Sequence record: PQ671644.1
DNA from: Escherichia phage DCP80
Direction: 5' to 3' (one strand)
Length of the DNA stretch: 64,000 bases
Shown here: positions 4,511 through 50,942 of the stretch, one piece after another
How the letters are laid out: each line of letters begins with the position of its first letter
Position numbering within the stretch: position 1 is the stretch's first letter
Translations under genes and position numbers: made by a program
The notes under the pieces: model-generated
The model's database searches: none
Told to the model about the DNA's origin: nothing
Seen by the model: only the letters and a program-made list of their open reading frames with translations

Positions 4511-4520
4511 NNNNNNNNNN
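4511..4520. other. N-run (scaffold junction)
   Basis: 10 n; flanking genes (34 fragment vs unrelated minus-strand gene) are not adjacent in T4. Confidence 0.95.
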
Positions 4521-5712: not shown

Positions 5713-6396
5713 TTATCGTTTTTTCGGTAAAGATAACGGGTCTGCATCTTCTTCGGAAGGAACTTCATCCAAACCAAGGGCATAGCGCTGGGCATACTTC
5801 AACATCAAAATATCTTTCGCGCAGTCATGTACCGAATCGTGCGCCACGAATCCATCTAAAGCCCCTTTCGGTAATGGGGTTTCACACATCTTACGGACGA
5901 GTGACAAGGCTTCGATTGCCGTCCTGATATCACGCTGGTTCCAGAATACAACCGGCTCCAGGCCATAAGTGTTCAATTCACGCTCAGGAATCCCCTCATT
6001 GCGCTGTAGGTCGCGGATAAGGTCGACAAACAACGGGAAGTCAAAAGACATTCCACGGCACCACATAAGGCTTTCGTATTTGTTAATTCCATTACCGTTC
6101 AGATAGTCAATCGCCTGTTGGATACCGGTCAGAGTATCAACATCATGTGCAGAAGGAGCCAGGTTAACACGAGCTTCTGCTGATTGCTTTTTCCACCAAC
6201 CCATGGTTGTTGTGTCGAACAGACGCTTACCTTTTTGATATTCGAGACTGAACTTAATACGTTTGCCGCGATTAACCAGGGTTTCGAATGATTCCACAAT
6301 AGCAGGGTCAGATTCGAATGTAATCAGAGCCAGGTCAATAACGGCTCCCTTCGAGCCGTTTCCCAGAGTTTCAAAGTCAATAATAGCATCAATCAT
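5713..6396 (-). CDS. dexA: exonuclease A (DexA, DEDD-type)
   Basis: 227 aa (same length as T4 DexA); IIDFETLG motif near N-terminus; position immediately downstream of dda. Confidence 0.75.
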   Translation of the reverse strand: MIDAIIDFETLGNGSKGAVIDLALITFESDPAIVESFETLVNRGKRIKFSLEYQKGKRLFDTTTMGWWKKQSAEARVNLAPSAHDVDTLTGIQQAIDYLNGNGINKYESLMWCRGMSFDFPLFVDLIRDLQRNEGIPERELNTYGLEPVVFWNQRDIRTAIEALSLVRKMCETPLPKGALDGFVAHDSVHDCAKDILMLKYAQRYALGLDEVPSEEDADPLSLPKKR

Positions 6397-6628
6397 CGCA
6401 CATCTCTTTTAATTTCTGAATTTCGCCAGCAACATAGTCGGAGATAAAAATCCCTGGCTCTTCATTGTTAAAATATTCAATCGCGGCCATACGTTTCCGA
6501 ATAAGGTCCAGTTCCAGTAAAACGTAATTGCCCTGTTGGACGATAGTCGGATTATCTTCGAAAAATTCAACGGCATCTTTAATACCGTAGATGAGATTAT
6601 CTAAATCTTCTTTATGTACCTTATACAT
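6389..6628 (-). CDS. hypothetical protein (79 aa; dexA.2 position)
   Basis: Start chosen at the Met shared with the duplicate copy (52561..52800); 8-nt overlap with dda. Confidence 0.5.
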   Translation of the reverse strand: MYKVHKEDLDNLIYGIKDAVEFFEDNPTIVQQGNYVLLELDLIRKRMAAIEYFNNEEPGIFISDYVAGEIQKLKEMCDD

Positions 6629-7949
6629 AATATGCGTCGTACCTCGCTCGTGTGATTCCAACATAAGCCAACTGGCTCGCTAATGAAGCTTCGGCCATAT
6701 GGATGCATGGAGTATAGATGAATGCTTTGTCCACTGAAACGCCCTGGGCCTTGTGGATTGTACTAACCGGAAGAGCACGAACTTTCAAGAAGGTCCGGCG
6801 AGCTTTCCAGAAGTCTTTCCACTCTGGACGTTTACCAGCGGCTTTCATCTGTTTGTATGTGTCAGCAACTTTAGCCAGATATGCCTGGAATTTCGGTTGC
6901 TGGTCTTCTGGTAAAACTTTGATGCGGTCAACCTGATATTCTTCATCTTCATCAATTGACTCAACTTCCAGGTCCCAGTAATTAATCACTAACTGGTGCG
7001 ATTCACCTTTACAACGGAGAATTGTGGAAGTGTATTTGCAATCCTTGATGCGAACCAACTGACCATTATTAAAAATGGTTTCGCTGAATTTCTTGCCTTC
7101 AAATTCCAGCTCTTTCATGTGTGGCTCTTGCATAACCAGGACTTCATACGGTAAAAATGCTTTATCCGTTTCATAGAGCTTGCGACGAATAATATTGTTC
7201 AGTTTTTCAACTGATTTATTCGTGTACGCATACATCCTGTTTTCCATCAACATATCAGCATCTTTTACAATACCGAAATAGTTTACCATGAAATCCTTTA
7301 AAGCGGTTTGTGAGGTAAAACCCTGCACACCATGACCATCATACATACAGTCGCGGAACCAACCACCATTGCGAATTTCTGTCGCCACTTCAATGATAGG
7401 AGCATTGCTTCGCATGACTTCAGTCAGATGAATCTGTTTGAACTTAGGATGCGTAAAGAATGGGCTTATCTTTTGTTGTGTGCTTCCTGGGTCAACTGGC
7501 TGCAGCTGGTGCATATCACCAATCCCAAGAATAGTACACCATTCAGGAACAGAGTTAAGAATAATCTTAAACAGAGCCCCGTCATACATACTTGCTTCAT
7601 CACAAACCAGAACATTGCATTTTGACATGTCAGGCATTTCGCGCTGTTCAAAAACGTTTTGGTCTTCATATGTGGTCGGGTTAATCTTCAGAATACTATG
7701 GATTGTATTCGCCGTTTGACCAGACAATTTAGATAAAACTTTTTTCGCCTGGTGAGTTGGTGCAGCAAGTACAATTCCCATAACTCCATTACGCACTAAA
7801 TGGTCAATGACAAATTTTGTCAGAGTAGTTTTACCTGTACCAGCTGGACCATTCAGAGTGATACATTCCCCTGAACGTCGCTGAATAGCTTCAGTGATAT
7901 AATCAAAAGCTTCTTTTTGTCCTGTGTTCAAGTCTTCAAATTTAATCAT
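6621..7949 (-). CDS. dda: Dda DNA helicase (SF1)
   Basis: 442 aa; matches T4 Dda (GPAGTGKTTLTKF, LAAPTH.AKK.LSKLSG, CDE.SMYD, PFFTH, FNNGQLVRI, TPCIH, YVG.TR.RYD). Confidence 0.92.
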   Translation of the reverse strand: MIKFEDLNTGQKEAFDYITEAIQRRSGECITLNGPAGTGKTTLTKFVIDHLVRNGVMGIVLAAPTHQAKKVLSKLSGQTANTIHSILKINPTTYEDQNVFEQREMPDMSKCNVLVCDEASMYDGALFKIILNSVPEWCTILGIGDMHQLQPVDPGSTQQKISPFFTHPKFKQIHLTEVMRSNAPIIEVATEIRNGGWFRDCMYDGHGVQGFTSQTALKDFMVNYFGIVKDADMLMENRMYAYTNKSVEKLNNIIRRKLYETDKAFLPYEVLVMQEPHMKELEFEGKKFSETIFNNGQLVRIKDCKYTSTILRCKGESHQLVINYWDLEVESIDEDEEYQVDRIKVLPEDQQPKFQAYLAKVADTYKQMKAAGKRPEWKDFWKARRTFLKVRALPVSTIHKAQGVSVDKAFIYTPCIHMAEASLASQLAYVGITRARYDAYYV

Positions 7950-8245
7950 GCCAATTTTACTCGCTTAACATATAAAGTATCTAAAACTAATTTCAATTCT
8001 CGTGCGTGTTCTTCAGTAGGAAAAACAGTTTTTGTTTCCCGCTTATCAAACCACCATTTTCTGGGAATATACCGTGTTTCAATACGTCCCATGCGTAAAT
8101 AGCGGTTTGTAGTATATGAATAGTTGGCAAGTTCATACTCTGCGCCCGGTTTTGTGGTGTATAAGGTAACCTTTCCATCATACTCCAATGGGCGTTCAAA
8201 ACCATCTTTATCTTTGTGGACCAGCACATATGCGTAGTACATCAC
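7946..8245 (-). CDS. hypothetical protein (99 aa; dda.1 position)
   Basis: ORF overlapping dda start by 4 nt; 93% identical to duplicate at 50944..51243. Confidence 0.5.
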   Translation of the reverse strand: MMYYAYVLVHKDKDGFERPLEYDGKVTLYTTKPGAEYELANYSYTTNRYLRMGRIETRYIPRKWWFDKRETKTVFPTEEHARELKLVLDTLYVKRVKLA

Positions 8246-8246: not shown

Positions 8247-8990
8247 TTAACCTCTAATCAGTTTAAAAATTGACGCGTTCAAAGGTAGACCTTTTTTCAG
8301 TTTAAGGCGGTCAATGAATGACAACTTATCTAAACGCTCCAGACCTTGAATAATTTTATCATACATATCGTAACGCGTTTCAGCGTCAGATGATTTCATT
8401 TTCAGACGCCAGTCAGGACCACCCATAACCATTTTCAGCCCGCGTTGACTAGTTCCGATGGAAGCCATTTGTCCATGGATACGAGCCTTGACTGCAATCA
8501 CAGAAGGGGTGGTATCTTTAGCGCCACTTTTATAAAGCTCTTTTAAATGTTTTTGACGCTTCTTGATTCCACGTTCGGTATCTTTAATATTTTTAACAAT
8601 TTTGCGAATTTTATAATAGTCAGCAGGAGTTACTTTAAAACTATTGGGCATCTTAGAACCGCCATTAATACGCACCGCCAAACGAGTCTGCGCACGTTTA
8701 AGTTCATCAAGAGATAAATCAGCACGTAAACCGTTGTACTTAGTTTTGACAGGGATAACATTGCCTTCAATATAACCTATATCATTGTTAAAGCGTTCAA
8801 AGGAAACTTTATCTTGAGTTGAATTTTCATCAAAACGTTCACCAGAATACGCACAGAATTCTTGTTTCAAAAGATTGGCGATATACTTACTAGACAGATT
8901 GAAATCCTTGTTACGACGTTTTGCAGACGTTTTGGTATGCTCGCGACGTTTGTAAACTTTCAATTCAAACTCTTCTTTTGACATATTCAT
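8247..8990 (-). CDS. hypothetical protein (247 aa) at the srd position
   Basis: ORF with own early promoter; conserved N-terminal block (AKRR.KDFNL, CAYSGE, ERFNNDIGYI.GNVIPV) and C-terminus shared with the diverged copy at 50196..50942. Confidence 0.55.
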   Translation of the reverse strand: MNMSKEEFELKVYKRREHTKTSAKRRNKDFNLSSKYIANLLKQEFCAYSGERFDENSTQDKVSFERFNNDIGYIEGNVIPVKTKYNGLRADLSLDELKRAQTRLAVRINGGSKMPNSFKVTPADYYKIRKIVKNIKDTERGIKKRQKHLKELYKSGAKDTTPSVIAVKARIHGQMASIGTSQRGLKMVMGGPDWRLKMKSSDAETRYDMYDKIIQGLERLDKLSFIDRLKLKKGLPLNASIFKLIRG

Positions 8991-9036
8991 GATATTTTTC
9001 TCATCTTACGGACGATTGAAAACTCAGTATGGATTC

Positions 9037-9065
9037 ATTATACACTATACATCTTTTATGTACAC
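9037..9065 (-). promoter_or_regulatory. T4-type early promoter
   Basis: Minus strand GTGTAC-17nt-TATAAT followed by GATTCATACTGAGTT leader. Confidence 0.5.
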
Positions 9066-9146: not shown

Positions 9147-9659
9147 TCAGTAAGAAAGAACGGAAAGATTCCATAATTTATAGTCTTCCCATCTATAAAT
9201 GCTCTCAATAGAGTCCACGCGTAGCGTAGTTCCCGCAGGGAACATCATCTCATCTTCATCATTTACTAATTGTAAGTTTGAAGAACGAGTTATTTCAGGA
9301 TATAGTCCGTTGAACTCTTCAGGAGGTGCCGCACAAATCATTTTAAAAATCGCTTCCTGATAATCAAATGCGAATGGTGCATCATTAATACAGAAAATAT
9401 TTTTGGTTCCATAGAAGCTAAAGGAAGCAAAGTTACGCGCAACACTGAAATCTTTGGAGAAACTCATTACACGGTCAAACTCAATCGTAGCACCAACACA
9501 TCCTACGGTTTCAAGATATGCCAAAGTTTTCTTAGAAATCCCGCGATATAACTTACCAGGCACAGCAGAAGTCAAATTCTTACGAATAATTTTGTTCAAA
9601 GTTTCCTGGATAGTGTCTGGCTTATTTTCCATGCACTGCCAGAGTGTACTCTGTTCCAA
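9147..9659 (-). CDS. ADP-ribosyltransferase-like protein (ModA/ModB-like, R-S-E class)
   Basis: 170 aa; candidate catalytic triad pattern: Arg in LYRGISKK, SFSKDFS (S-x-S), and EDE (ExE) near the C-terminus; position upstream of srd/dda as modA/modB in T4. Confidence 0.5.
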   Translation of the reverse strand: MEQSTLWQCMENKPDTIQETLNKIIRKNLTSAVPGKLYRGISKKTLAYLETVGCVGATIEFDRVMSFSKDFSVARNFASFSFYGTKNIFCINDAPFAFDYQEAIFKMICAAPPEEFNGLYPEITRSSNLQLVNDEDEMMFPAGTTLRVDSIESIYRWEDYKLWNLSVLSY

Positions 9660-9759
9660 CTCAGAGTAAATTTCATCAATTTCAATCTGGGTATTTTCGC
9701 GAAAATATTCACATTTAACTGCATTGATGTACTCTGCTAATTGGTGACTTGCGTACAGC

Positions 9760-9800
9760 NNNNNNNNNNNNNNNNNNNNNNNNNNNNNNNNNNNNNNNNN
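9760..9800. other. N-run (scaffold junction)
   Basis: 41 n. Confidence 0.95.
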
Positions 9801-15080: not shown

Positions 15081-15125
15081 ACGCAACCTCATGTTCGTTT
15101 AATTGAACGTCATCATCAAAGAGAC

Positions 15126-16085
15126 TTACAGCCATTTCATTTCCCCAGCCAGTTGAGCAAACAGATAAGTCAAGTGAACTTCGGTATTGGCCGCAATGCC
15201 ATGATACTGATTGTTCTCACCTACAATCTCATACATGCGGATGATACTTGCACCAGTCAGTTTGCCATACATTTCATCAGCCAGCTTTGCAATGAAGCTT
15301 GAATAATCATTTGCATGTTTAGGAGCCAGACCACGAAGAACTTTAAAGTTACGGTCTTTAAGGGCATCAATCACATCATCAATTGGCGTGCGATTGTTTG
15401 TCACGATACTCAGAATACCAGAATCGATAACACCCTTTGCAGAGTAACGGTCAAGCTCGTTAATTGTCTTACGCAGGTCCGGGAAGTTATGCTTAACCAG
15501 AGCAGCAACAACTTTCAGGTCTTCGATTTCAACGCCTTCGTTTTTACATACCGCAACTGCACGATGAATCATCTCTTTCATCATGGTAGTCTGGTCAGCC
15601 GGAGTTGCTTCACCGAACTTAATGACGCGACAACGAGACTGCAACGGAGTGATAATGCCATCGATATTGTTCGCGGTCATAATGATTGAACAGTTGCTCG
15701 AATAAGCTTCCATAAAGCTACGAAGATGCCGTTGTGATTCGGCCAGACCTGCACGGTCAAACTCATCGATAACGATTACCTTACGGCGACCTTCGATTGA
15801 TTTGGATGATGCAAAGCGAGTCAATTCATTACGCACAAAGTCAATTCGACAATCGGAGCCGTTAACAAACAGCATATCAGAATTCGTATCTGCGCACATA
15901 GCTTTTGCAACTGTTGTCTTACCAGTACCAGGGGAACTACTGACCAGAATCAAGTTAGGAATCAAACCTTTTTTAACAATCGCCTCTAATGTTTCTTTAT
16001 CATGAGCCGGGAGAATACACTCTGATAATGTACCTGGGCGGTATTTTTGTTCCCACATGAATTCTTTGTCATTAACCGTTAACAT
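15126..16085 (-). CDS. 44: clamp loader large subunit gp44 (AAA+)
   Basis: 319 aa (same as T4 gp44); N-terminus EQKYRP..L.ECILPA.DKET and Walker A SPGTGKTTVAKA. Confidence 0.92.
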   Translation of the reverse strand: MLTVNDKEFMWEQKYRPGTLSECILPAHDKETLEAIVKKGLIPNLILVSSSPGTGKTTVAKAMCADTNSDMLFVNGSDCRIDFVRNELTRFASSKSIEGRRKVIVIDEFDRAGLAESQRHLRSFMEAYSSNCSIIMTANNIDGIITPLQSRCRVIKFGEATPADQTTMMKEMIHRAVAVCKNEGVEIEDLKVVAALVKHNFPDLRKTINELDRYSAKGVIDSGILSIVTNNRTPIDDVIDALKDRNFKVLRGLAPKHANDYSSFIAKLADEMYGKLTGASIIRMYEIVGENNQYHGIAANTEVHLTYLFAQLAGEMKWL

Positions 16086-16119
16086 ATATTTTCCTCATAT
16101 TAGTTTCTACTTTGTACTC

Positions 16120-16137
16120 CATGGGGCCGAAGCCCCA
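16120..16137 (-). other. intercistronic C(UUCG)G RNA hairpin between genes 45 and 44
   Basis: GGGGC-UUCG-GCCCC on the minus strand; no following U-run. Confidence 0.5.
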
Positions 16138-16141
16138 TTTA

Positions 16142-16837
16142 TTAATCTTGGAATTCGTGGCTAGAGCCTTGTTCCATTGCAATCACATAGCTTGCTTGTG
16201 TGCCTTCAAACTTCGTAGCAAATTTATCATCTTTCGCCCAAAGCATAACACGGTAATCAGCCGGAATCATTTTCATGTTCAGTTTGTTAATGATAAATTT
16301 AAACGCTGCATCACCTTCGTAATCGCCACACACCAGGGAATACAATGGACGCGCCAATTCTTTATCTTCGAGCTGGTTATAACCATGGATAACAATCTTA
16401 CCGTCTTTGTTGGTGATTGCAAAAGTATCCAGAGACAAACCACCAGCCACACGCAGAAGCTGCTGCAGGTCACTGCCTTTCAGGTCGAAGATAACCTTAG
16501 CTACCGGGAAAGGAATCTTCTTAGCAGGGAACACGATAGTGCTCGGGTCAGCCGCAGGCCAGTGAATCGTTGAACGTTGGTCTTTGATAATGATATTTGA
16601 TGCGTCTTCAGCCAGAGATACTTCAGCTTGGTCAGTTACCAGGCCCAGGATACTTAAGAAGCCGTTCAGGTCATAAATCGCAGCTTCAAAGTCAATTGTA
16701 TCATTGATTTCGGATTCGCCATATGACGCTCCAGTTACAGAACGAGTCAGGATGGTATTACCCGGCTTAAGCATAATGCCAGAGTAAATGGAGGTGAAAT
16801 TTTTCAATACCGCGATTGTGTCCTTTGAGAATTTCAT
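16142..16837 (-). CDS. 45: sliding clamp gp45
   Basis: 231 aa; matches T4 gp45 nearly end to end (SGIMLK, IDF..AIYDLNGFL, WPAADPST, FINMKM.P..Y...LWAK, KFEG). Confidence 0.93.
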   Translation of the reverse strand: MKFSKDTIAVLKNFTSIYSGIMLKPGNTILTRSVTGASYGESEINDTIDFEAAIYDLNGFLSILGLVTDQAEVSLAEDASNIIIKDQRSTIHWPAADPSTIVFPAKKIPFPVAKVIFDLKGSDLQQLLRVAGGLSLDTFAITNKDGKIVIHGYNQLEDKELARPLYSLVCGDYEGDAAFKFIINKLNMKMIPADYRVMLWAKDDKFATKFEGTQASYVIAMEQGSSHEFQD

Positions 16838-16876
16838 GTAATTACCTTTTATTCAATATTCAGTTAATGAGAATTA

Positions 16877-16901
16877 ATTATACAACGTTTGTTAACAAGC
16901 A
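16877..16901 (-). promoter_or_regulatory. middle promoter (MotA box TGCTTGT + -10 TATAAT) for gene 45
   Basis: MotA-box-like TGCTTGT 12 nt upstream of TATAAT on the minus strand; T4 gene 45 is known to have a middle promoter. Confidence 0.5.
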
Positions 16902-16902
16902 G

Positions 16903-17310
16903 TTAAGCAACAACTACCATTTGTTTGCGGATAGCTTCCGGAAGAGATTCAATATACTCTGGAAGTTGCGCAGCAATAATAGAACCAGCTTGCACCAGAT
17001 GGTCGTCCGAGTTAACACAATAATCATCTTCAAGACGTTCGGAACCATCACGGTCGATAACCAGTTTAGCACCAGCGGCCAGTGAATCATTGTAGTGATT
17101 ACGCATCAGTTCAATCCACTTATCAGATACATCAGTATCAATCACACCGTACAGCATGAATTTAATTTCTTGTGGCAGAGACTGCAGACGGGTAGCAGAT
17201 GCTTCATCACATGCCAGGACCCAGGATTTGCGAACACGGTTTTGGTTATGTGGGTTAGCGTCGGTGCGGATGGTTTTAACTTGGATATCTTTAGCAGTTA
17301 CGTTGTTCAT
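16903..17310 (-). CDS. rpbA: RNA polymerase-binding protein RpbA-like (by position)
   Basis: ORF between 46-side genes and 45; start set to ATG 17310 (GAGAG RBS); track ORF starts at TTG 17334. Confidence 0.45.
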   Translation of the reverse strand: MNNVTAKDIQVKTIRTDANPHNQNRVRKSWVLACDEASATRLQSLPQEIKFMLYGVIDTDVSDKWIELMRNHYNDSLAAGAKLVIDRDGSERLEDDYCVNSDDHLVQAGSIIAAQLPEYIESLPEAIRKQMVVVA

Positions 17311-17334
17311 AATATTCTCTCTATTCATTATCAA

Positions 17335-17586
17335 TTAATCAAAGTATTCATATGCGAACCAGGCATTGTGTCTGTTCGCGATTATTTTAACATATTCTTC
17401 GCCGAAAGCGTTTTGTAAGTCACGTTCAGTAACAAGGTGTTCATCTTTCGAAAAGGTATTAACTAACACATACCGTTTAATTTCAGGGACAGCCAGTAAA
17501 TGCTGCCCGGTTAAGAAGTCAGCCATAATAGCCTCTATTATAACATCCTTGTTTAAAGCATTATTCCATAACAGTGAATCGACCAA
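17335..17586 (-). CDS. hypothetical protein (83 aa)
   Basis: ORF overlapping gene 46 3' end; small conserved-position ORF. Confidence 0.45.
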   Translation of the reverse strand: MVDSLLWNNALNKDVIIEAIMADFLTGQHLLAVPEIKRYVLVNTFSKDEHLVTERDLQNAFGEEYVKIIANRHNAWFAYEYFD

Positions 17587-19255
17587 CTTTTTTCATCTGG
17601 AGATGTTGCCCGTATGCTTCCGGGTCATGGTCTCGGTGACTGATAATAAAGATGTTGGTGTCTTCCAATTTGTTCAGGATGGTAGCAATTGCTTTAACAC
17701 CCTCTACATCCGTAGCCGAGTCAAAAACTTCGTCCAGAATCAAGGTGTTAATATTAACACCAGATACTTTCGCAGCAATATCACGCCATGTAAACAGCAA
17801 TGCAATATCGATACGAGCTTTTTCACCCTGGCTAAATGATGCATAGCTGAAGTCTTCACGTCCACGAGATTTAATCGTTTCGTTGAACTCTTCATCTAAC
17901 GTAAAACTATAATCAGCTTCCATAACTTTAAGATAAGCGTTTATCTGCTTATTAAAGATAGGAATATATTTCTTAATAATCGCACCCTTGATACCAGAAT
18001 CTTTCAACATATCCGTTAGGATACCACGTTGATATTTTTCCATCACAAGGTCAGATTTCTGTTTGACTATTTTATCAAGCTGGTCTTGAAGCATTTTAAT
18101 GTCTGCAGCATGGTCAATGAATTCTGACTTGGCTTGCTCGATTAATGCTTTAACCTTTTTAGCTTTTTCGACAGTCTGGACTAAGGTTTGTTTCTTGGTT
18201 TGAATGTCTTGAGCTATTGTACGCTGGTTTTGTCTTGCCTTGGTATACGCATCAAATTGCTCCTGAACAGCGTTCTGGCGAGCTTTATGGTTATCAGCTG
18301 ATACATTACATTCTTCAATCTTTGACTCAATCCTGGCGACAATAGGGTCTCCTGGATGCAACTGACTGGCACAAGTCTGACAGCAACCACCTTTCTCGTA
18401 CAGACCAACAACCTTTCGGTAATCGTCTATCTTCGATTTAATCAGGAATGATTCCTGCTTTAACTTCGTGAGTTCATGCTCAGGGTCTTCTCCCAAGATT
18501 ATCTCGGTCAGTCTTGTCGTTGCTTCTTCGATAGTCGTCTTGATTCCACGTGCTTCTGTGGCAAGTTCATCATACATCGTTTGCAGCCGCAACAGATTAT
18601 CACCTGATAATTTTCTTTGGCGGTCTTCGTTGTCCTGATAGATTTTAATCTGTTGAACAATACCATCATGCTGCACATCCATCACCTGGATTTGACTATT
18701 GACTTCGCGGATAAGAGATTTGTTCAGCTTATCCATATCGGCCAGTACAGAAACCTCTAAAAGGTCTTCGACAAGTTTTCTTCTTGCAGGAGTGGATAGG
18801 CCCATAAAAGGGGTATATCCAGCTGTGCCGAGTACGACAATCTGTTTGAAGCTTGCATAGGACATTCCGATAAGCTGTTCAAATTCCGCTTGGAAGTCTT
18901 TACTGCTGGCAGATTCATCAAGACGTTTACCGCCACAAGAGATTTCAAAAACATTGGGTTTTTGCCCGCGTTTGATATAGTATTCTTTTCCATCATATTC
19001 CATCCACAATTCAACGAGCATATCTTTTTTATTGCTCGAGTTAATCAGCTGGCCTTTCTTTACATCACGGAAAGGCTTACCGAACATAGCAAAGGTAACC
19101 GCTTCAAGGAACGTAGATTTCCCCGCGCCGTTCTTACCGGTGACCAGAGTTTTCTGGACTTTATCCAGTTCAACAGTAATCGGTTTGGCGCCAACCGACA
19201 TAATATTTTTATAGATAACTTTCTTAAGCTTAAAAGTCTTCATCGTAATAAGCAT
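17561..19255 (-). CDS. 46: recombination endonuclease subunit gp46 (Rad50/SbcC-like)
   Basis: 564 aa; Walker A GKNGAGKST at N-terminus, coiled-coil middle with CxxC zinc hook, ABC signature and Walker B (LILDE) at C-terminus. Confidence 0.92.
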   Translation of the reverse strand: MLITMKTFKLKKVIYKNIMSVGAKPITVELDKVQKTLVTGKNGAGKSTFLEAVTFAMFGKPFRDVKKGQLINSSNKKDMLVELWMEYDGKEYYIKRGQKPNVFEISCGGKRLDESASSKDFQAEFEQLIGMSYASFKQIVVLGTAGYTPFMGLSTPARRKLVEDLLEVSVLADMDKLNKSLIREVNSQIQVMDVQHDGIVQQIKIYQDNEDRQRKLSGDNLLRLQTMYDELATEARGIKTTIEEATTRLTEIILGEDPEHELTKLKQESFLIKSKIDDYRKVVGLYEKGGCCQTCASQLHPGDPIVARIESKIEECNVSADNHKARQNAVQEQFDAYTKARQNQRTIAQDIQTKKQTLVQTVEKAKKVKALIEQAKSEFIDHAADIKMLQDQLDKIVKQKSDLVMEKYQRGILTDMLKDSGIKGAIIKKYIPIFNKQINAYLKVMEADYSFTLDEEFNETIKSRGREDFSYASFSQGEKARIDIALLFTWRDIAAKVSGVNINTLILDEVFDSATDVEGVKAIATILNKLEDTNIFIISHRDHDPEAYGQHLQMKKVGRFTVME

Positions 19256-19493
19256 CCTTGATACATGATTCAGCCATATGGATTAATGCCTCTGGGGTAT
19301 CATCTTCCATTACATTAAAGCTAAATTCTACGGCCCAATCGGTGACTACATAGACTTTGATAAGTTGACCAGTTTCCCGGTCAGTGATAGCTTCAAACCA
19401 ATACTTAATAGTATTCGGTTGATTATCGTCGTCAACCACATCACATTCGCGGATATGCTCAAGCCCCGCTTCATTAAAATCATAAAGTCTCAT
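19230..19493 (-). CDS. hypothetical protein (87 aa)
   Basis: ORF between 47 and 46, overlapping both ends. Confidence 0.45.
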   Translation of the reverse strand: MRLYDFNEAGLEHIRECDVVDDDNQPNTIKYWFEAITDRETGQLIKVYVVTDWAVEFSFNVMEDDTPEALIHMAESCIKDAYYDEDF

Positions 19494-20285
19494 GGTTGCA
19501 CCTCAAGATATAATTTGTTGGCCAATGCTTTGAGAGCTTTTGATTCTTTCTCATTGGCGTCAGGTAATGCATCGATATATTCTGCCATCATATCTGTTAA
19601 GCGTTTTATGTCTAACTCTTCATCAGAGTCTGACGTATCAACACTGTTATCAACCTTATTGACAACACGCAATTCGTGCACACGCTTTTCTAATTCAGAT
19701 TCGAACTTGGTCAGGTCTTTATCGACTTTTTCTACAATAACACGGACTGATAAGTCTTTGAAGTCGTCGTAGTTAATAGTTTCGTTTGGATAAAAAATCT
19801 TCCGATGCCAGGTGGTTTCATTCGGAATAAATTTCATCTCTTCGGTTTCTGTATCAAATTCCCAGAATCCGCGCGGGTCATTCTCATCACCTGCTGTTAA
19901 TGTCCATGGCGTTCCTATGTACTTAACGTTCGCAGCTTCTGAAATGGTATGGAAGTGCCCAGACCAAACTTGCTTGTACTTCTTAAGGAAATCAGGCTCA
20001 AGTCCGTGGGATTTCAATCCTTTATAGAAATAAAACCCGGTTAATTCCCAGTGACCGATGCAATATTCGGCACCAGAAGTTTTGATGTGTTGATGAATGT
20101 CAGTCGCGTTCTCGTCACACATCCATGGAATCATATCAATCTGACAACCGTCAAAATCAACAGTCGTTGGCTTATCGTAGATTTTAACATGGTCATACTT
20201 ATTCAGGAGTTCAGTGATAGCATTAGGATGAATCTTATTCTTCAGATTCATGTCATGGTTCCCGACTATCGTGTGCATAGTAATT
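19490..20285 (-). CDS. 47: recombination endonuclease subunit gp47 (Mre11/SbcD-like), N-terminal ~75 aa missing at N-run
   Basis: Matches T4 gp47 (HTIVGNHD, FDGC.ID.IPWMC, GHWEL.GFYFYKG, SGHFHT, GTPWTLTAGDENDPRGFW). Confidence 0.9.
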
Positions 20286-20300: not shown

Positions 20301-20383
20301 TTCCCGGTCGCATTATCTTTAAAAATTCTATCAAGAAGTCCAAAAAGTAGGTCTGATAATGAAAATCCTACTTTTGGTTCCAT
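20301..20383 (-). CDS. t: holin t, N-terminal 27 codons (truncated by N-run)
   Basis: MEPKVGFSLSDLLFGLLDRIFKDNATG matches T4 holin N-terminus (..SFSPSDILFGVLDRLFKDNATG); AAGGAG RBS. Confidence 0.75.
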
Positions 20384-20402
20384 ACTTTTCTCCTTTAAAG
20401 AT

Positions 20403-20410
20403 ATTTATAA
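20403..20410 (-). promoter_or_regulatory. late promoter TATAAATA for gene t
   Basis: Exact TATAAATA on the minus strand 20 nt upstream of the t ATG. Confidence 0.6.
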
Positions 20411-20419
20411 TATGGGGTA

Positions 20420-21220
20420 TTATACTCTGCTTCCGTATATCGTACCAACGTTTTGCCAGTTAGGAGCATTACCGGCGACTGCTGCCCCAGCATTACCACC
20501 AGCACCAACTTTAAGCACTTTACCTCCATCATTCCAAGCGTTTTGGCCTTTAGCACCGACATTCCCACCAGCACCTGAATGCGCGTTACCATAATTATAA
20601 CCACCACCTGCTCCGGTAAGAGATGCCGCCCCACCGGAGTATCCTCCGCCACCAGCTGCACCAAATGGTCTACCGCCGCCAGCGCCTATATCTTGCCAGT
20701 TAGCACCTGAATGGGGTCTATACGCGATGCCACCACCACCGCCACCACCACCGGCTATAGCGCCATTATTACGGATACGAAGTTTAGTTCCGGCATTGTT
20801 TTGTATGGCTATTCCGCCGGCCTCACCATTACCATTGCCGTCGCTATGGGTCCAGCCTCCTCGGCCTCCTCGACCATAAACGGTAACACCGCTATTAATA
20901 TTAAGTTGTATATAAGCATTAGGTAAGTTGCTAGGGAATTCCAGACATGGGTTTCCGCGGTTGTTAGATACCAAGTCACCAGTAATTGTAATAACAACAG
21001 GCGCACTGCCTTGTGCTCTCATCCAGTTTATAAGGGTGTTTTTATCATAGTTATGATTAGCCCCTATAGATAAGTAAATTTCTTTTGATTGGTTAGCCAT
21101 CGAACCCATCCAACCCGGGACAGCTACACGAACATCTCGCATTGCTGCATCCATCCAACGTTGGCCAGTTTCGTCAACTGCAGATTGTCCGACCCAACCA
21201 GGTAATCCTACAATTGCCAT
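20420..21220 (-). CDS. 38: gp38 tail-fiber adhesin, T2/T6 type (glycine-rich motifs)
   Basis: 266 aa; conserved N-terminal attachment domain (VG.PGW.G.SAV.ETGQRWM) and C-terminal polyglycine stretches (GGGGGGGG) separating variable segments, as in T2-type gp38 adhesins. Confidence 0.8.
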   Translation of the reverse strand: MAIVGLPGWVGQSAVDETGQRWMDAAMRDVRVAVPGWMGSMANQSKEIYLSIGANHNYDKNTLINWMRAQGSAPVVITITGDLVSNNRGNPCLEFPSNLPNAYIQLNINSGVTVYGRGGRGGWTHSDGNGNGEAGGIAIQNNAGTKLRIRNNGAIAGGGGGGGGIAYRPHSGANWQDIGAGGGRPFGAAGGGGYSGGAASLTGAGGGYNYGNAHSGAGGNVGAKGQNAWNDGGKVLKVGAGGNAGAAVAGNAPNWQNVGTIYGSRV

Positions 21221-21251
21221 AATAAATCCTTAGGGCCCGAAGGCCCTTTTC

Positions 21252-24200
21252 TTAATTTAATTTAGCTTCAAGTTCTCTAACTTTAGCCGACAGGGTTTTA
21301 ACTGCTTCAATTAACAGAGCAACTTGTGCCTGAGTCGAAACTGTCAGAACCATATTTTCCTGCGAATCTAAAGACTCATGCACCGCTTCAGGTAATACTT
21401 CTTTAAGATTCTGAGCAATAACACCTGCTTCAGTTTGAACCGCTTCACCACCGATATATTCAGCTTTATCATAGATTAAACCGTCGAGCTGTTCAACCTT
21501 TTCAAGAGCATTTTCAATAGGCCTGAAGTTTGATTTCAAACGAATGTCAGAACGAATATAAACGTTTGGAGCATTTATATTTTTATATGAGTACAAATCA
21601 CCGTTTTGGAAACGGAAAGTCTGTACGCCATTCGCATATATGTCTAATAATCCATCGCCATTTTGCTTAATACCGGTATCACTATCGCCAATTGTTATAC
21701 TACTTCCACCGAGTGAGTTAGTTGTATTAACACCAAAGGCACTTGTTTGTGGCATCTGTACTTTACCCGGGCAATCTAAAATGCCATCCATTGTAAATCG
21801 CCATCTTGCTTGTTGGCCGTTAGCGTTATCTCCGCGAATACGAATAATACCTTCTCGCCAACCAGCTGTGGTACCAGAGCCGACCCATCCAAATTCAAAG
21901 GTTTGACGATATCCAGAGGAACCATAGTTGCTGTATGCACCTACAATAGGATAATAACTACCTGAATTAGATAAATCACCATGGTCTGCCATAAAGGTGA
22001 TTTTAGATTTCATTGTATCTGAGGTATCTCCCCAACCAGAGGCACCGCGCCAACCTGCAACCACACGAGACGAGATATTGCCTAAACTAGTATTACCACT
22101 GGTGACATTAAGGCCGCCCGCCACGTTCAGACCACCACCAGTAATATTCAGACCACTGCCCATGCCTACACGACCATCAGCCATGTTGATAGAGAAAGGT
22201 CTTAAGCCATTCCACAACCCGTCAGTTGCATTCGGGTTTTCTTCCGTGTTTTTATCCGTAACTAAAATATGAAAATTTTCACCGTCGTTTCTAATCAAAG
22301 CGGCATTAGAACCTATATCATTACCGCTGGATTTGATACGCATACCTTTTTGGTTATTGGTAACGTATTCACCACGTGTAACAATATCCGATTCGCCGGC
22401 AGCAAACATTCCGTCAATGTTGTTCAGCATTCTTACAGATTTACCTACAACATGACCTTCAGGTAATGTTTCTACCAAAGGCTGGACACCGCTATTAATA
22501 CCCACTACGGTTACTTTACTATTGCTACTGCATGTATATTCTACCGCCAAAGAATTAGAATACCCACCTAAGTAAACGTAAATATCATAGGTATCTTCGC
22601 TTGTATTAACAGAAGCAATCTGAGAAATAGCTTCAGAAGTTCTATTCCACAGCGTAGCATTAAGGCCTTTAGGGTTATTATTGCCGGTTCTAAGGACTAT
22701 TTCGGCTATTGAAGCCTGACCATAACTTTTAAAATTAAATCCAGAACCACCTGATATTTTAAAGGATGCTGTACCCGTCGCTTGTGGAATTTCTACAGTA
22801 GCAAATTTATACCAACCTGTAGTAGCGCCGCCAGCCCAACCGCCTGTGTTAACTTTACGGTCTAACGTTGTGTTCAGGTTTTTAAAGTTATCTAATGCAG
22901 TGCTGCCTGTAATATTACCGTCAGGACCAATACGAACATCGGAACCAATTTTAAGTGCCTTGGTTATATCAACAGTATCAGAGTTTAATGCAATACCATG
23001 GGAGTATGTATAGTTATGTAAACGAACAACGTTGCCGCCGTCGCCAATACCGAGATACCATTTTGTAACATCTGCTTTACGTCCTTGGATAAAGTTGGAT
23101 GATGCCTGGGATGAAGCATTTACCACAATGGCATCAGAATCCATATTAACACGCAGTCTACAGTCGGTCTGGACAAATTTACTTACGTTGTCTACTGTAA
23201 AAAGTGGACCATACCCGGCACTTTTATTCCCCATTATAACCGTGCCGGTGGCTAAATTGATAGATAGCGGACGAAGGTCACTTATTCCACCATTTTCTCC
23301 AGCGTTCTGAAGAGTAGGAATAAGATGGAATGAAGCAGAAGAACCTGTTTCTGAACGACGGAAAATCATACCATATTCGGCATTCCAAATTCTTAATGCA
23401 TCAGCGGTACCGCCTATTTTAACTTGACCGTTAAAAGTGGCGCCACCATTTATATTCAATCCGTTTGCTGAAGTGATACTACCTTCCGATGAAATACTAC
23501 CAGCAGTAGTCAATCCACCATTTACACGGAATTGAATAGAACCTACGGTTTGGGAACTTGTGGGAGCAACGCGTTGTGAATAAAAATGCCAACCCTGTCC
23601 ATCGCCTAATTCAAATACAGTTTCTCTGCTTTTATTAGTGTCATCCTCAAATGCGTTACCCCATACTTTCATGGTCACATAGCTTTTGTTCTGACCCGGG
23701 CGGGTGCCTGCGTTCCAAACAATCGTTTTTGTGCCATTGATAGTGGAAGAAGCGCCGAACTTTATACCTTTATTGTTGTTGTTAGTATTAAAAAATAATT
23801 CGTTATCTAATTTAACTGGTTGGGTCGAGGAAACTGTGCCATCGGCTCTAAGATTCAGTTCATTAACCCCGGTTTTAATATTCAAAATACCTGGTTCAAT
23901 AATCATGCCTTCTGCCATAGAAATGGCTACACGACCTGTACCACGGAAATAATGATAAAGTTTACCATTAGAATTATAACCTAAATGGGTTTGGCCATCC
24001 CCAGAGTTATTACCGTCTATTTCGGTTCTAATAGAAACCATAGAAGAGTTCTGGCCAGGCAGAAGCCAAGTAAGACCTTGGTCATTACTACGGCCAAATA
24101 TGGTTTTACTAGTCCCACGGAAGCCGTCGGAAGTAATAGATGCAACGGAATAACCTCCACCAACTAAATCATAAACACCTTGCTTAATATATTTCAGACC

Positions 24201-25004
24201 GGTTACAGTGTCACCGAGAACAAGATACTTATCGCCCATTACACCGACGTTACCATAATCACTAGACGGGAAACCCGTAGTGAATGTACCTAATGCAAGG
24301 CTATTACGGCCTGCCATTCGTCCGTCATTACGAATGCCATATTGTTTAGATGATGGAGTATTACCTGTCCACCATGACATTTCATCAGCTTGACCTGTCT
24401 GGGCGGTGCAAAGCTCATGCCACATAGTGCCACCAGACTTGGCGCGAACTTTACGAAGATAGTTTACACCATTCGTTTCGCCTGTGCCTGGGTATACATA
24501 ATTAACTAATGAATCTGTATCATATACACCAAAGGCTTTGCCACCGTGGATAACTGTATCGACTGCAATGCGTTTAGTTACTAATGAATCTGATGCTAAA
24601 ATACGGTTGGCCTGAAATTCACCACCATTTATAGAACGGAAATAGAATTCACTATTAGCAGTACCTTCTGTCCCCTGTTTAATCCTAATGCGTAATTCAC
24701 CAGCATTTGTAGTTTGAGGACGTGCATATATAACACCGCGTTCACTGCCATCAGCATTTTCAAACCATAAATGGGCATTTGATGTTGTATCGTTTGAAGC
24801 TCTTGAATAAAACGAGCCTTGCAACGCTCTAAAAGTTTGAGCCGAAATACTAGTGCCTGCTGTAATCGACCCGCTTGTAGAAAAGTTTCCAAAATTGTTT
24901 AATGGGCCGTTAATGCGTAAAGTTCCATTAATAGTTACATCCCCGTCAACCTGCCCACCTTTAGCAAAGCCCAAATCAATAATCTGTCCCTGGTCTGACT
25001 TAGT
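21252..25004 (-). CDS. 37: long tail fiber distal subunit gp37, T2-type with C-terminal intramolecular chaperone domain; N-terminal ~40 aa lost in N-run
   Basis: N-terminal region near-identical to T4 gp37 ([24 protein letters not shown]); C-terminus ...[19 protein letters not shown]...[15 protein letters not shown]... resembles self-cleaving intramolecular chaperone domains of tail fibres. Confidence 0.85.
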
Positions 25005-25040: not shown

Positions 25041-25056
25041 GCGGAAAGGGGGTGTT

Positions 25057-25224
25057 ATGAAAACATTCAAAGATTTTATCAACGAAGATATGGTTGCAGG
25101 TGATGCAGGTGGAAACCCAACTAATATCACAACAGGTACCACTTCCGGGGCAGTTGTCAATAAAGGCCCTGAACAAATCCCATCAAAAAAGCGTAAGAAC
25201 AAAGACGATAAACCTACAGTATAA
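25057..25224 (+). CDS. hypothetical protein (55 aa)
   Basis: ATG at 25057; short ORF upstream of primase followed by a UUCG hairpin at 25228-25241. Confidence 0.4.
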   Translation: MKTFKDFINEDMVAGDAGGNPTNITTGTTSGAVVNKGPEQIPSKKRKNKDDKPTV

Positions 25225-25256
25225 TGGTCCTTCGGGGCCATTGAAATGAGGAAACT

Positions 25257-26285: not shown

Positions 26286-26393
26286 GAAGGGATTCCGGTA
26301 AAGTAACCGATGATGGAATGAATATGTTCTATTGTGACCTGGGGTAAGTGCACCCCTTGTGTTGCAGCGATAGGCACAACCAGTAAGTTCCAC

Positions 26394-26591: not shown

Positions 26592-26613
26592 ACATCCTCC
26601 TTTCTTGTATTTA

Positions 26614-27750: not shown

Positions 27751-27754
27751 TTAT

Positions 27755-50195: not shown

Positions 50196-50942
50196 ATGAC
50201 TTTATCAAAAACCAAAACGCTGAAAGTTAAACGTCGTCTGGAACACACTCAAGCTTCCGCTAAACGTCGCGGTAAGGACTTTAACCTGGATTTTGATTAT
50301 CTGGTTAACATTCTTGACCAAAAAGTTTGTGCTTATTCTGGTGAGACATTTAATAACTCTATTGAAGGTGAGAAGTTATCATTAGAGCGTTTTAACAATG
50401 ATATTGGTTATATCAAGGGTAATGTTATTCCTGTTAAAAAGAAATACAATACCATGCGTTCTGATTGGACCCTGGATGAGCTTAAACAACGCCGTGATGA
50501 TGTTGCTGTAAAAATTGCTCGCCCTTCTGCCAAGAAGATTGATAAGTTAAATCTGACTGCAGAGAAATGGGAACAGATTAAAAAGTCATATACTCATATC
50601 AAGAACATCCAGCATAAACGTGATAATCGCGTTAAGCATTATGCTCAAATGAGTAAATCAGAGCAGTCCAAAGAAAACCAATTAAAAATGGTTGCTCTGA
50701 AGGCTCGCATTGATGGTTCCCGTGTTGCGGAAGGTCATGAGCTTACTAAATTGAACGTTTTGCTCAAAGGCAATGACTGGAAAGTTACCAAGAAATTAAC
50801 TGATGCTGAAACGCTTTTTGATTGCTATGATAAAATCATTCAAGGTCTTGAGCGTTTTGAGAAGATTGGTTTTATTGGTAAATTAAAACTGAAACGTGGT
50901 CTGCCTTTGAACGCGTCAATTTTTAAACTGATTAGAGGTTAA
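50196..50942 (+). CDS. hypothetical protein (248 aa) at the srd position, diverged copy
   Basis: About 55% identical to 8247..8990 with identical last ~25 aa; flanks near-identical. Confidence 0.55.
   Translation: MTLSKTKTLKVKRRLEHTQASAKRRGKDFNLDFDYLVNILDQKVCAYSGETFNNSIEGEKLSLERFNNDIGYIKGNVIPVKKKYNTMRSDWTLDELKQRRDDVAVKIARPSAKKIDKLNLTAEKWEQIKKSYTHIKNIQHKRDNRVKHYAQMSKSEQSKENQLKMVALKARIDGSRVAEGHELTKLNVLLKGNDWKVTKKLTDAETLFDCYDKIIQGLERFEKIGFIGKLKLKRGLPLNASIFKLIRG

What the first reader, a model, noticed from the sequence alone, without database searches (positions are those of the whole stretch)
8247..8990. Divergent gene at the srd position inside otherwise near-identical duplicated blocks
The two copies of the dexA-dda region are 93-100% identical at protein level for DexA, Dda and the 99-aa ORF, but the 247/248-aa gene (8247..8990 vs 50196..50942) is only about 55% identical, with conserved N-terminal blocks (CAYSGE, ERFNNDIGYI.GNVIPV) and identical last ~25 residues. 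Divergence confined to one gene between conserved flanks suggests diversifying selection or cassette exchange.
Basis: seen in the sequence. Interest (0 to 1): 0.5.

Follow-up and report, generated by a model that had tools for sequence, protein, structure and literature searches.

The report
Two srd alleles from two phages
The divergent gene is the known T4-family early gene srd, seen here as two old allele types carried by two closely related phages whose assembly pieces were joined in one window; this is ordinary phage gene swapping, not a duplication or an arms-race hotspot.

Summary
The sequence observation is real. The 247-aa and 248-aa ORFs are 49-50% identical, while DexA, Dda and Dda.1 are 98, 100 and 93% identical. 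Divergence runs from codon 2 to about 55 nt before the stop: 42.6% of sites differ inside against 3.8% in the flanks.

The "duplicated blocks" are not one genome. The window is a chain of N-separated assembly contigs that map to scattered places on a Gaprivervirus genome. Two pairs overlap the same locus, so at least two related phages are present. Every complete phage genome matched holds the locus once.

Both ORFs are Srd (PHROG 1400; 48% and 68% identical to T4 Srd). In T4, Srd stimulates host RNase E to degrade host mRNA. Each allele is 98-100% identical to genes already annotated as srd in GenBank.

Synonymous divergence is saturated inside srd (dS 1.29, against 0.10-0.26 in the flanks), and dN/dS is 0.36. 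Among isolates the flanking variation is unlinked to allele type. This supports cassette replacement by homologous recombination and does not support diversifying selection in place.

The Srd N-terminal domain has an HNH-like fold but lacks the catalytic His and the Zn-binding cysteines.

The parts
8247..8990 (-). srd, allele type A (247 aa), the Dhakavirus-like Srd lineage
   Evidence: PHROG 1400 'Srd anti-sigma factor', E 2e-89 over residues 6-247. 100% aa identity to phage P896 and P479 Srd. 79-85% to Dhakavirus Srd and 48% to T4 Srd, E 9e-74.
50196..50942 (+). srd, allele type B (248 aa), the T4/RB69-like Srd lineage
   Evidence: PHROG 1400, E 1e-98. 99% aa identity to SP18 and phage 212 Srd, 74% to Mosigvirus ST0 and 68% to T4 Srd, E 1e-127.
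8304..8986 (-). Exchanged cassette core in copy 1: the span that holds all srd-associated differences fixed between type A and type B carriers
   Evidence: 284 fixed differences, the first at 8986 and the last at 8304. Identity profile.
50200..50885 (+). Exchanged cassette core in copy 2
   Evidence: Same analysis as for copy 1. Junction alignment.
8700..8948 (-). Srd N-terminal HNH-like (beta-beta-alpha) domain, residues 15-97. It holds every residue that is invariant across Srd homologues.
8409..8699 (-). Variable linker and long helical hairpin, residues 98-194. This is the most divergent part of Srd.
   Evidence: 29% identity between the alleles. Helices 122-154 and 162-194 in the full-length model, pLDDT 86. 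dN 0.88 and dN/dS 0.53.
8247..8408 (-). Conserved C-terminal region, residues 195-247 plus stop. Its 3' part is the downstream homology patch for recombination.
   Evidence: 70% identity between the alleles, with the last 14 aa identical. Conserved in T4, Mosigvirus and Dhakavirus.
8988..9014 (-). Conserved 5' leader and ribosome-binding region, CGTCCGTAAGATGAGAAAAATATC + ATG. This is the upstream homology patch. The same sequence lies at 50172-50198 (+).
   Evidence: The core CGTCCGTAAGA..GAG.AAAATAT is nearly invariant in Gaprivervirus, Dhakavirus, Mosigvirus and T4. Coordinates.
9036..9065 (-). Early-promoter-like site upstream of srd (GTGTACA, 16-nt spacer, TATAAT). Its counterpart lies at 50120-50149 (+).
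   Evidence: Consensus scan scores 10/12. The hexamers are conserved in the related-phage alignment. Coordinates. This is a consensus match only.
7946..8245 (-). dda.1 (Pfam Phage_Y01A), the conserved flank. The copy-2 counterpart is 50944-51243 (+).
   Evidence: PF25693, E 1.5e-25. 93% aa identity between the copies.
6621..7949 (-). dda helicase, a conserved flank. The copy-2 counterpart is 51240-52568 (+).
   Evidence: 100% aa identity. dS 0.10.
5713..6396 (-). dexA exonuclease, a conserved flank. The copy-2 counterpart is 52793-53476 (+).
   Evidence: 98% aa identity. dS 0.26.
9147..9759 (-). modA ADP-ribosyltransferase, truncated by the contig end. In copy 2 only the last 12 codons are present, at 50001-50039 (+).
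   Evidence: PHROG 832, E 4e-39. Synteny with P479 and SP18..
9760..9800 (.). N run marking a contig join. Others that bound the two loci are 4511-4520, 49973-50000 and 53697-53720.
   Evidence: The adjoining segments map to non-adjacent parts of the P479 genome.

Best explanation
The window is a string of assembly contigs from at least two co-assembled Gapriverviruses (T4-like coliphages of the SP18/VR7/P479 group). Each phage contributes one copy of the single-copy early region modA-srd-dda.1-dda-dexA.

The two phages carry different allele classes of srd.
- Type A (8247-8990) belongs to the Srd lineage of the Dhakaviruses.
- Type B (50196-50942) belongs to the lineage of T4 and the RB69-like phages.

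The classes are old, since synonymous sites are saturated. Both are under purifying selection. They are swapped as a cassette of about 690 nt by homologous recombination during mixed infection. The crossovers fall in two sequence patches that are conserved in all T-even srd genes: the 5' leader and ribosome-binding site immediately upstream of the ATG, and the last 55-100 nt of the gene plus dda.1.

Function is inferred by homology to T4 Srd. It is an early protein that binds the N-terminal catalytic half of host RNase E and stimulates it, which speeds host mRNA decay. The conserved N-terminal HNH-fold domain and the C-terminal region are probably the functional core. The helical hairpin (residues about 98-194) is the freely diverging part.

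Shown here: gene identity, synteny, the contig structure of the window, the localisation of divergence, the dS/dN pattern, the allele distribution among isolates, and the fold.

Inferred: the recombination mechanism, RNase E activation by these particular alleles, and which allele is native to Gaprivervirus.
For: 1. Window structure.
- There are 14 N runs.
- Each segment maps to a different place and orientation of P479.
- Segment 4521-9759 maps to P479 52384-47141; segment 50001-53696 maps to 47715-51407.
- A second overlapping pair is 25041-29505 and 57141-60514.
- All 84 matched complete genomes hold the locus once.

2. Identity as Srd.
- PHROG 1400, E 2e-89 and 1e-98, full length.
- BLASTP to T4 Srd, E 9e-74 and 1e-127.
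- The same modA-srd-dda.1-dda order holds in P479, SP18, VR7, phage 212, QL01, dhaeg, VR5, MN04, ST0 and T4.

3. Two deep lineages.
- Srd A against B is 44-52% identical.
- A is 79-85% identical to Dhakavirus Srd.
- B is 74% identical to Mosigvirus Srd and 68% to T4 Srd.
- Dda is 98-100% identical among all Gapriverviruses.

4. Age, not rate.
- srd dS is 1.29, against 0.20, 0.10 and 0.26 in dda.1, dda and dexA.
- dN/dS is 0.36 between the types and 0.07-0.19 within them.

5. Population pattern in 10 Gaprivervirus sequences.
- In the flanks, between-type divergence equals within-type diversity (about 0.02-0.09).
- Inside srd, between-type divergence is 0.24-0.55 while within-type diversity is 0.00-0.06.
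- SNP haplotypes immediately upstream and downstream are shared across allele types.
- W1 and P479 differ in their 3' junction.

6. Both alleles are common in isolates.
- The type A core is 98.4-99.6% identical in 8 records.
- The type B core is 94-98% identical in 25 records.

7. The homology patches at both ends are conserved even in T4.

8. T4 Srd function, from Qi et al. 2015 as summarised in PMC13232886, PMC7430671 and PMC9409239.
Against: - No donor with near-identical srd was found for either allele.
- The closest non-Gaprivervirus type A is 90% aa identical but has dS 1.18.
- The closest non-Gaprivervirus type B is 74% aa identical.
- The direction and timing of the exchange therefore remain open.
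- Pairwise dN/dS averages cannot exclude episodic positive selection at a few hairpin sites.
- RNase E activation has been shown only for T4 Srd. Type A is 48% identical to it.
- I could not read the primary paper.
- The contig interpretation rests on mapping and N runs. No read data were available.
Confidence: 0.85

Rival explanations
1. In-place diversifying selection. A host-phage arms race drives rapid amino-acid change in Srd while the neighbouring genes stay constant.
For: - Divergence is confined to one gene.
- The hairpin region has relaxed constraint: dN/dS 0.53, against 0.12 in the N-terminal domain.
- Srd targets a host protein.
Against: - Synonymous sites are saturated only inside srd (dS 1.29, against 0.10-0.26 in the flanks).
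- dN/dS is below 1 in every region, and in every 30-codon window with a finite dS estimate.
- Within each type, dN/dS is 0.07-0.19.
- No intermediate alleles exist among 33 Gaprivervirus records. There are two discrete classes, each matching a lineage in another genus.
Confidence: 0.05
2. A true inverted duplication of the dexA-dda-srd block within one phage genome, followed by divergence of one srd paralogue.
For: Both blocks occur in one 64-kb window, in inverted orientation.
Against: - The blocks lie on separate N-delimited segments.
- All segments map to scattered P479 positions in descending length order.
- 84 complete genomes have one copy of the region, and nearly all of the 1162 srd-bearing records have a single srd.
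- Each block matches a different set of isolates at 96-99%.
- Other loci, including the primase-soc region and the tail fibres, also occur as two variants.
Confidence: 0.03
3. srd is, or recently was, a selfish HNH homing-endonuclease cassette. The sharp boundaries would then reflect endonuclease-driven gene conversion.
For: - The N-terminal domain has an HNH fold.
- It matches PHROG families labelled HNH endonuclease or endonuclease VII, E 1e-10 to 1e-20.
- T-even genomes are rich in homing endonucleases.
Against: - Srd sits at the same position, essentially once per genome, in more than 1100 T4-like records across many genera. Homing genes are sporadic.
- The alleles replace each other; this is not a presence/absence polymorphism.
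- There is no catalytic His and no Cys4 zinc site.
- Purifying selection acts over the full length.
- The known T4 phenotype depends on RNase E.
Confidence: 0.05
4. An assembly or annotation artefact: one copy is a chimeric or degraded sequence.
For: The window does contain at least one join without N, at about 33740, and many N runs.
Against: - Both ORFs are intact.
- Each is 98-100% identical over its full length to srd genes of independently sequenced isolates.
Confidence: 0.02

Closest known systems
Bacteriophage T4 Srd (the gene between modA and dda.1; historically annotated 'anti-sigma factor / decoy of sigma70 or sigmaS'; shown by Qi et al. 2015 to stimulate RNase E)
   Same: - Full-length homology: 48% (type A) and 68% (type B) identity, E 9e-74 and 1e-127.
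- Same length, same gene neighbourhood, same conserved leader and early-promoter-like site.
- Same invariant N-terminal motifs and C-terminus.
   Different: - Type A is a distinct deep lineage (the Dhakavirus type) whose hairpin region is only about 30% identical.
- RNase E activation has not been tested for either allele.
- No similarity to sigma-factor domains was detectable, so the 'anti-sigma' label has no support here.
srd of sequenced Gapriverviruses (P479, PSD2001, P896, MN01 for type A; SP18, VR7, VR20, phage 212 for type B)
   Same: 98-100% identical nucleotide and protein sequences with identical context.
   Different: Nothing material. The window adds one more example of each allele. 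W1 carries a slightly different 3' junction: AAA (Lys) where the other type A carriers have CGT.
Mosaic allele replacement in T4-like phage genomes (plastic early-gene regions exchanged by homologous recombination)
   Same: - A discrete gene-sized segment with a foreign phylogenetic affinity lies between near-identical flanks.
- Breakpoints fall in conserved patches.
- Neighbouring genes modA and dda.1 show the same behaviour in other isolates.
   Different: Here two allele classes co-exist at appreciable frequency within one genus (8 against 25 records), with no linkage to the flanks. I did not find this dimorphism described in the searchable literature. An earlier, looser search was uninformative.
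HNH / beta-beta-alpha-Me nucleases, closest solved structure PacI (PDB 3M7K/3LDY)
   Same: - Like PacI, it lacks the canonical His general base. PacI uses Tyr instead (PMC4081073).
- Invariant acidic and Asn residues sit where HNH enzymes place their metal ligands (E65, N86). That placement is inferred from secondary-structure position.
   Different: - Arg (R66) replaces the first His.
- Only one conserved Cys remains, so there is no Cys4 zinc site.
- No Pfam HNH model matches.
- No nuclease activity is known.

Membership tests
T4 Srd family (PHROG 1400) | Full-length sequence homology to T4 Srd | tested here: met
   PHROG 1400, E 2e-89 and 1e-98 over about 245 residues. BLASTP to T4T Srd, 48% (E 9e-74) and 68% (E 1e-127).
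T4 Srd family (PHROG 1400) | Conserved position between modA and dda.1-dda, essentially single copy | tested here: met
   Same order in 10 annotated reference loci including T4. 1165 places in 1162 srd-bearing records, so a single place in nearly all of them.
T4 Srd family (PHROG 1400) | Early expression from a sigma70-type T4 early promoter | tested here: inconclusive
   A TGTACA-16-TATAAT site lies at 9064-9037 (10/12 match) and is conserved in relatives. This is a consensus match only; there are no expression data.
T4 Srd family (PHROG 1400) | Binds the RNase E N-terminal half and stimulates host mRNA cleavage | not testable with these tools
   Known for T4 Srd only, through secondary citations of Qi et al. 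2015. The primary paper is not held.
Anti-sigma factor / sigma70 decoy (the historical annotation of Srd) | Detectable similarity to sigma70 regions or to known anti-sigma domains | tested here: not met
   No Pfam sigma or anti-sigma family at E <= 1 for the two proteins, or at E <= 0.1 for 45 homologues. No NCBIfam match.
HNH / beta-beta-alpha-Me nuclease superfamily | Beta-beta-alpha core fold | tested here: met
   [not shown]
HNH / beta-beta-alpha-Me nuclease superfamily | Catalytic His (general base) at the end of strand 1 | tested here: not met
   No invariant His in the domain. The end of strand 1 is E65-R66, and Arg is invariant in Srd and in distant stand-alone homologues. Positional equivalence is inferred from secondary structure, not from a superposition.
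HNH / beta-beta-alpha-Me nuclease superfamily | Metal-ligand Asn/His in the helix and an acidic residue before the general base | tested here: inconclusive
   N86 (helix) is invariant in Srd and in distant homologues; E65 (D in distant homologues) is conserved as an acidic residue. I could not superpose coordinates to confirm equivalence.
HNH / beta-beta-alpha-Me nuclease superfamily | Structural Cys4 (CxxC...CxxC) zinc site, typical of many HNH enzymes including PacI | tested here: not met
   Only C46 is conserved, and the CxxC partner is S49. PacI's Cys4 sites are described in PMC4081073.
HNH / beta-beta-alpha-Me nuclease superfamily | Match to curated HNH sequence models | tested here: not met
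   No Pfam HNH family even at E <= 10 on the isolated domain. PHROG families labelled endonuclease or HNH do match, E 1e-10 to 1e-20, but those labels are uncurated.
Free-standing homing endonuclease cassette | Sporadic presence/absence distribution among close relatives | tested here: not met
   Present at the same site in all 84 Gaprivervirus/Dhakavirus records and in more than 1100 T4-like records.
Intragenomic segmental duplication | Both copies on one contiguous molecule | tested here: not met
   Separate N-delimited segments that map as independent contigs. Single copy in complete genomes.
Diversifying-selection hotspot | dN/dS > 1 with synonymous divergence similar to the flanks | tested here: not met
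   dN/dS is 0.36. dS is 1.29, against 0.10-0.26 in the flanks.

The most novel reading that the evidence does not exclude
Srd may be more than a passive RNase E-binding adaptor.

Its N-terminal domain belongs to a large branch of the HNH fold that Pfam does not recognise. The branch signature is C..G...[D/E]R...GY..GN...N, and it has about 1565 cluster representatives at E <= 0.001. Srd keeps every residue that is invariant across that branch. It could therefore bind, or even cleave, nucleic acid with a non-His mechanism in the manner of PacI.

In addition, the two ancient alleles differ mainly in the helical hairpin. They might be kept side by side in Gapriverviruses by balancing selection, for example through different host RNase E or degradosome contexts, or through escape from a host defence that senses Srd.
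Probability: 0.15. Interest if true: 0.55.

Novelty: already known. Interest (0 to 1): 0.22.

Why it matters
For genome scanning, the main lesson is a caution. Two near-identical blocks in a window built from concatenated contigs can be two strains, not a duplication.

Biologically this is a clean, well-bounded example of gene-sized allele replacement in T4-like phages. It shows that localised divergence with saturated synonymous sites points to exchange, not to an arms race.

There are two modest leads:
1. srd is dimorphic within the genus Gaprivervirus (8 against 25 sequenced records), and the allele type is unlinked to the flanking sequence.
2. The conserved N-terminal domain of Srd has an HNH-like fold. 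This is unexpected for a protein known only as an activator of host RNase E, and it may help explain how it works.

Tried and rejected
- Pfam and NCBIfam scans of both proteins, of 45 homologues and of the isolated N-domain gave no family.
- A profile search against PDB sequences returned one spurious hit at E 0.42.
- I looked for a recent donor of type A. Metagenomic contig ERZ27245996 has an Srd 90% identical to W1 against much more distant flanks (Dda 68%). However, dS is 1.18, so it is not a recent donor. The direction of transfer stays unresolved.
- The lower nucleotide diversity of type A (about 0.01, against 0.03 in its flanks) hints at a more recent spread. The sample is small, so I did not build on it.
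- The literature search 'Gaprivervirus OR srd' was swamped by SRD5A papers.
- Qi et al. 2015 (PMC4649665) is not held.
- 'Srd + HNH + phage' gave only two papers, and neither title or abstract concerns Srd's fold; I did not open them.
- Pfam scans of ten multi-domain carriers of the N-domain showed no informative partner domains.
- I considered and rejected the pseudogene or chimera reading, because both ORFs are intact and match isolates.

Full report
**1. The observation**

The two ORFs exist as described. One lies at 8247-8990 on the minus strand (247 aa) and the other at 50196-50942 on the plus strand (248 aa). BLASTP gives 123/249 identities, or 49%, with E 2e-80.

The neighbouring proteins are almost the same in both blocks. 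DexA is 98% identical, Dda 100% and the 99-aa Dda.1 93%.

A 60-nt sliding comparison of the two blocks shows a sharp hotspot. Identity is 90-100% on both sides and 43-82% inside srd. The drop begins at the start codon, and identity recovers by about 60 nt before the stop.

I then aligned ten Gaprivervirus sequences. All but one of the 285 differences fixed between the two allele classes lie between window positions 8986-8304, equivalent to 50200-50885. In that span 289 of 679 sites differ between the two window copies. In the flanks 113 of 3009 differ (Fisher p = 3e-143).

The claim of an identical last ~25 residues is overstated: only the final 14 residues are identical, and 20 of the last 25 match.

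**2. The blocks are not a duplication**

The window contains 14 runs of N. The segments between them map one by one to scattered places and orientations of the 172-kb genome of Escherichia phage P479, a Gaprivervirus. Their lengths fall in descending order, as in a sorted contig list. One join, near 33740, carries no N at all.

- Segment 4521-9759 covers P479 52384-47141.
- Segment 50001-53696 covers P479 47715-51407.
- A second pair, 25041-29505 and 57141-60514, overlaps P479 41.2-46.2 kb at 96.6% identity.
- Two tail-fibre segments are 75.6% identical over about 1.4 kb.

All 84 complete phage genomes that matched this region hold it once. The window therefore samples at least two related phages from one fragmented assembly.

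Copy 1 is 99.3% identical to P479 over 1860 nt. Copy 2 is 98.2% identical to phage 212 and 96.5% to Shigella phage SP18.

**3. What the gene is**

Both proteins match PHROG 1400 ('Srd anti-sigma factor') over their full length, at E 2e-89 and 1e-98. They align end to end with T4 Srd at 48% identity (E 9e-74) and 68% identity (E 1e-127).

The gene order modA-srd-dda.1-dda-(dexA.x)-dexA is the same in P479, SP18, VR7, phage 212, QL01, dhaeg, VR5, MN04, ST0 and T4.

A promoter-like site (TGTACA, 16-nt spacer, TATAAT) lies 47 nt upstream of the start codon. It is followed by a leader, CGTCCGTAAGATGAGAAAAATATC, that is almost invariant across all these genera.

No Pfam or NCBIfam family covers Srd, and nothing resembling a sigma or anti-sigma domain was detected.

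The only experimentally supported function concerns T4 Srd. It associates with the N-terminal half of RNase E and stimulates degradation of host mRNA. This comes from Qi et al. 2015, Genetics 201:977, as summarised in PMC13232886, PMC7430671 and PMC9409239. I could not read the primary paper.

**4. Why one gene differs**

Per-gene identity matrices show two deep Srd lineages.

- Type A comprises window copy 1 and P479. It is 79-85% identical to Dhakavirus Srd.
- Type B comprises window copy 2, SP18, VR7 and phage 212. It is 74% identical to the Mosigvirus ST0 protein and 68% to T4 Srd.
- A and B are 44-52% identical to each other.

Yet all Gapriverviruses share Dda at 98-100% and DexA at 97-100%.

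Codon analysis shows the difference is one of age, not rate.

| Gene | dS between the window copies |
|---|---|
| srd | 1.29 |
| dda.1 | 0.20 |
| dda | 0.10 |
| dexA | 0.26 |

- dN/dS is 0.36 between the alleles.
- It is 0.12 in the N-terminal third, 0.53 in the middle third and 0.53 in the C-terminal part.
- It is 0.07-0.19 within each allele class.
- No 30-codon window with a finite dS estimate exceeds 1.

This rules out simple diversification in place. It fits replacement of the gene by a long-separated homologue.

**5. Population picture**

The divergent core of type A is 98.4-99.6% identical in 8 GenBank records: P479, PSD2001, pEC-M719-6WT.2, ECML-359, vB_YenM_P8, P896, EAWsc9 and MN01. 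It is 78-80% identical in about 50 Dhakavirus records.

The type B core is 94-98% identical in 25 records: SP18, the VR7/20/25/26 phages, the TH series, phage 212 and others.

In a ten-sequence alignment, the flanks show between-type divergence equal to within-type diversity, at about 0.02-0.09. Inside srd, between-type divergence is 0.24-0.55 and within-type diversity is 0.00-0.06.

SNP haplotypes directly upstream and downstream are shared across allele types. For example, M719 and YenP8 (type A) carry the upstream haplotype of copy 2 and phage 212 (type B). Copy 1 also differs from the other type A carriers at the 3' junction: it has AAA, as in Dhakavirus, where they have CGT.

This pattern indicates repeated homologous recombination at both gene borders. 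Those borders are exactly the stretches conserved in every T-even srd.

The same mosaic behaviour appears next door. VR7 ModA is only 61-65% identical to the other Gaprivervirus ModA proteins. Dhakavirus dhaeg Dda.1 is 93-95% identical to the Gaprivervirus protein, while QL01 and MN04 are 74-77%.

I could not decide which allele is native to the genus.

- Type A matches the Dhakavirus-like affinity of its neighbours.
- Its diversity is lower than that of its own flanks.
- The closest outside relative is a 173-kb metagenomic contig whose Srd is 90% identical but whose Dda is only 68% identical. It is still separated from type A by dS 1.18.

**6. The HNH question**

A model of residues 1-105 alone has pLDDT 87. 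It has strands 62-66 and 78-82 followed by helix 83-89.

- McrA, Cas9 HNH domains, Gme HNH, DraIII, Cap5 and Hpy99I also appear among the top twelve hits.
- Foldseek agrees: PacI probability 0.99 and Gme HNH 0.95.

All 23 residues that are invariant across 45 Srd homologues lie in this domain.

There is no conserved His. The end of strand 1 is E65-R66. Only one Cys (C46) is conserved, so the canonical general base and the Cys4 zinc site are both absent.

Distant stand-alone homologues share the same signature, C..G...[D/E]R...GY..GN...N, including the Arg. None of them matches a Pfam HNH model. A search of 1.84 billion cluster representatives found 1565 relatives of the domain at E <= 0.001, in varied architectures.

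PacI is itself an HNH enzyme that uses Tyr instead of His as the general base (PMC4081073). Catalytic competence of Srd therefore cannot be excluded from sequence alone, but it is unproven.

I found no paper in the searchable library that links Srd to this fold.

**7. Verdict**

The sequence observation is correct, and the hotspot is real and highly non-random. Its setting was misread: these are two phage genomes, not a duplication.

The gene is the well-known srd, and both alleles are already in GenBank under that name. The best explanation is allele (cassette) replacement by homologous recombination between T-even phages. Two ancient, functionally constrained Srd lineages segregate within Gaprivervirus.

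The finding is ordinary for T4-like phages. It leaves two small leads worth a note: the within-genus dimorphism of srd, and the HNH-like fold of Srd's conserved domain.

Noticed in passing
window 1-64000 (N runs at 4511, 9760, 15031, 20286, 25005, 29506, 37900, 42024, 46131, 49973, 53697, 57105, 60515, 63923): The window is a concatenation of contigs in descending length order. They map to scattered places and orientations of a Gaprivervirus genome. Segment 29541-37899 joins P479 10.4-14.4 kb to 127.6-123.4 kb at about 33740 with no N between.
   Followed up: yes
window 25041-29505 and 57141-60514: This is a second pair of overlapping contigs, covering the primase-dCTPase-soc-mrh region, 96.6% identical to each other. 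Both lack the roughly 890-bp segF homing-endonuclease segment of P479 (about 284 bp in its place). Both are only 82% identical to P479 over the dCTPase gene.
   Followed up: partly
window 20301-25004 and 37941-42023: These tail-fibre-region contigs are only 71-74% identical to P479. Their first 111 nt are 100% identical to each other, while 23572-25004 and 40267-41693 are 75.6% identical. They look like two divergent receptor-binding alleles, consistent with two strains.
   Followed up: no
L009 3386-4000 (VR7 modA) against L001/L010; L005 4022-4318 (dhaeg dda.1): The genes next to srd are also mosaic among isolates. VR7 ModA is 61-65% identical to the other Gaprivervirus ModA proteins. Dhakavirus dhaeg Dda.1 is 93-95% identical to Gaprivervirus Dda.1, while QL01 and MN04 are 74-77%.
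   Followed up: partly
window 43855-45732 (+) and 45741 onward: A 625-aa ORF sits in a stretch of about 1.9 kb that has no match in P479, after the DNA ligase gene. The start of a second, similar ORF follows it. My guess, from memory and untested, is tandem Alt-like paralogues.
   Followed up: no
window 15081-20285 (around segment positions 2437-2483): The gp46/gp47-gp45 region lacks the homing endonuclease gene that P479 has at 27149-27865.
   Followed up: no
L023 (ENA ERZ27245996 k123_278436, 173 kb): This metagenomic T4-like contig appears to represent a lineage distinct from both Dhakavirus (Dda 84%) and Gaprivervirus (Dda 68%). Its Srd is nevertheless 90% identical to Gaprivervirus type A, and it has two adjacent Mrh-domain genes.
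   Followed up: partly
Proteins P0057-P0188: The Srd N-terminal domain occurs in about 1565 cluster representatives. It is often found at the C-terminus or in 2-4 matched stretches of otherwise unannotated proteins of 300-1300 aa. Pfam has no model for it.
   Followed up: partly
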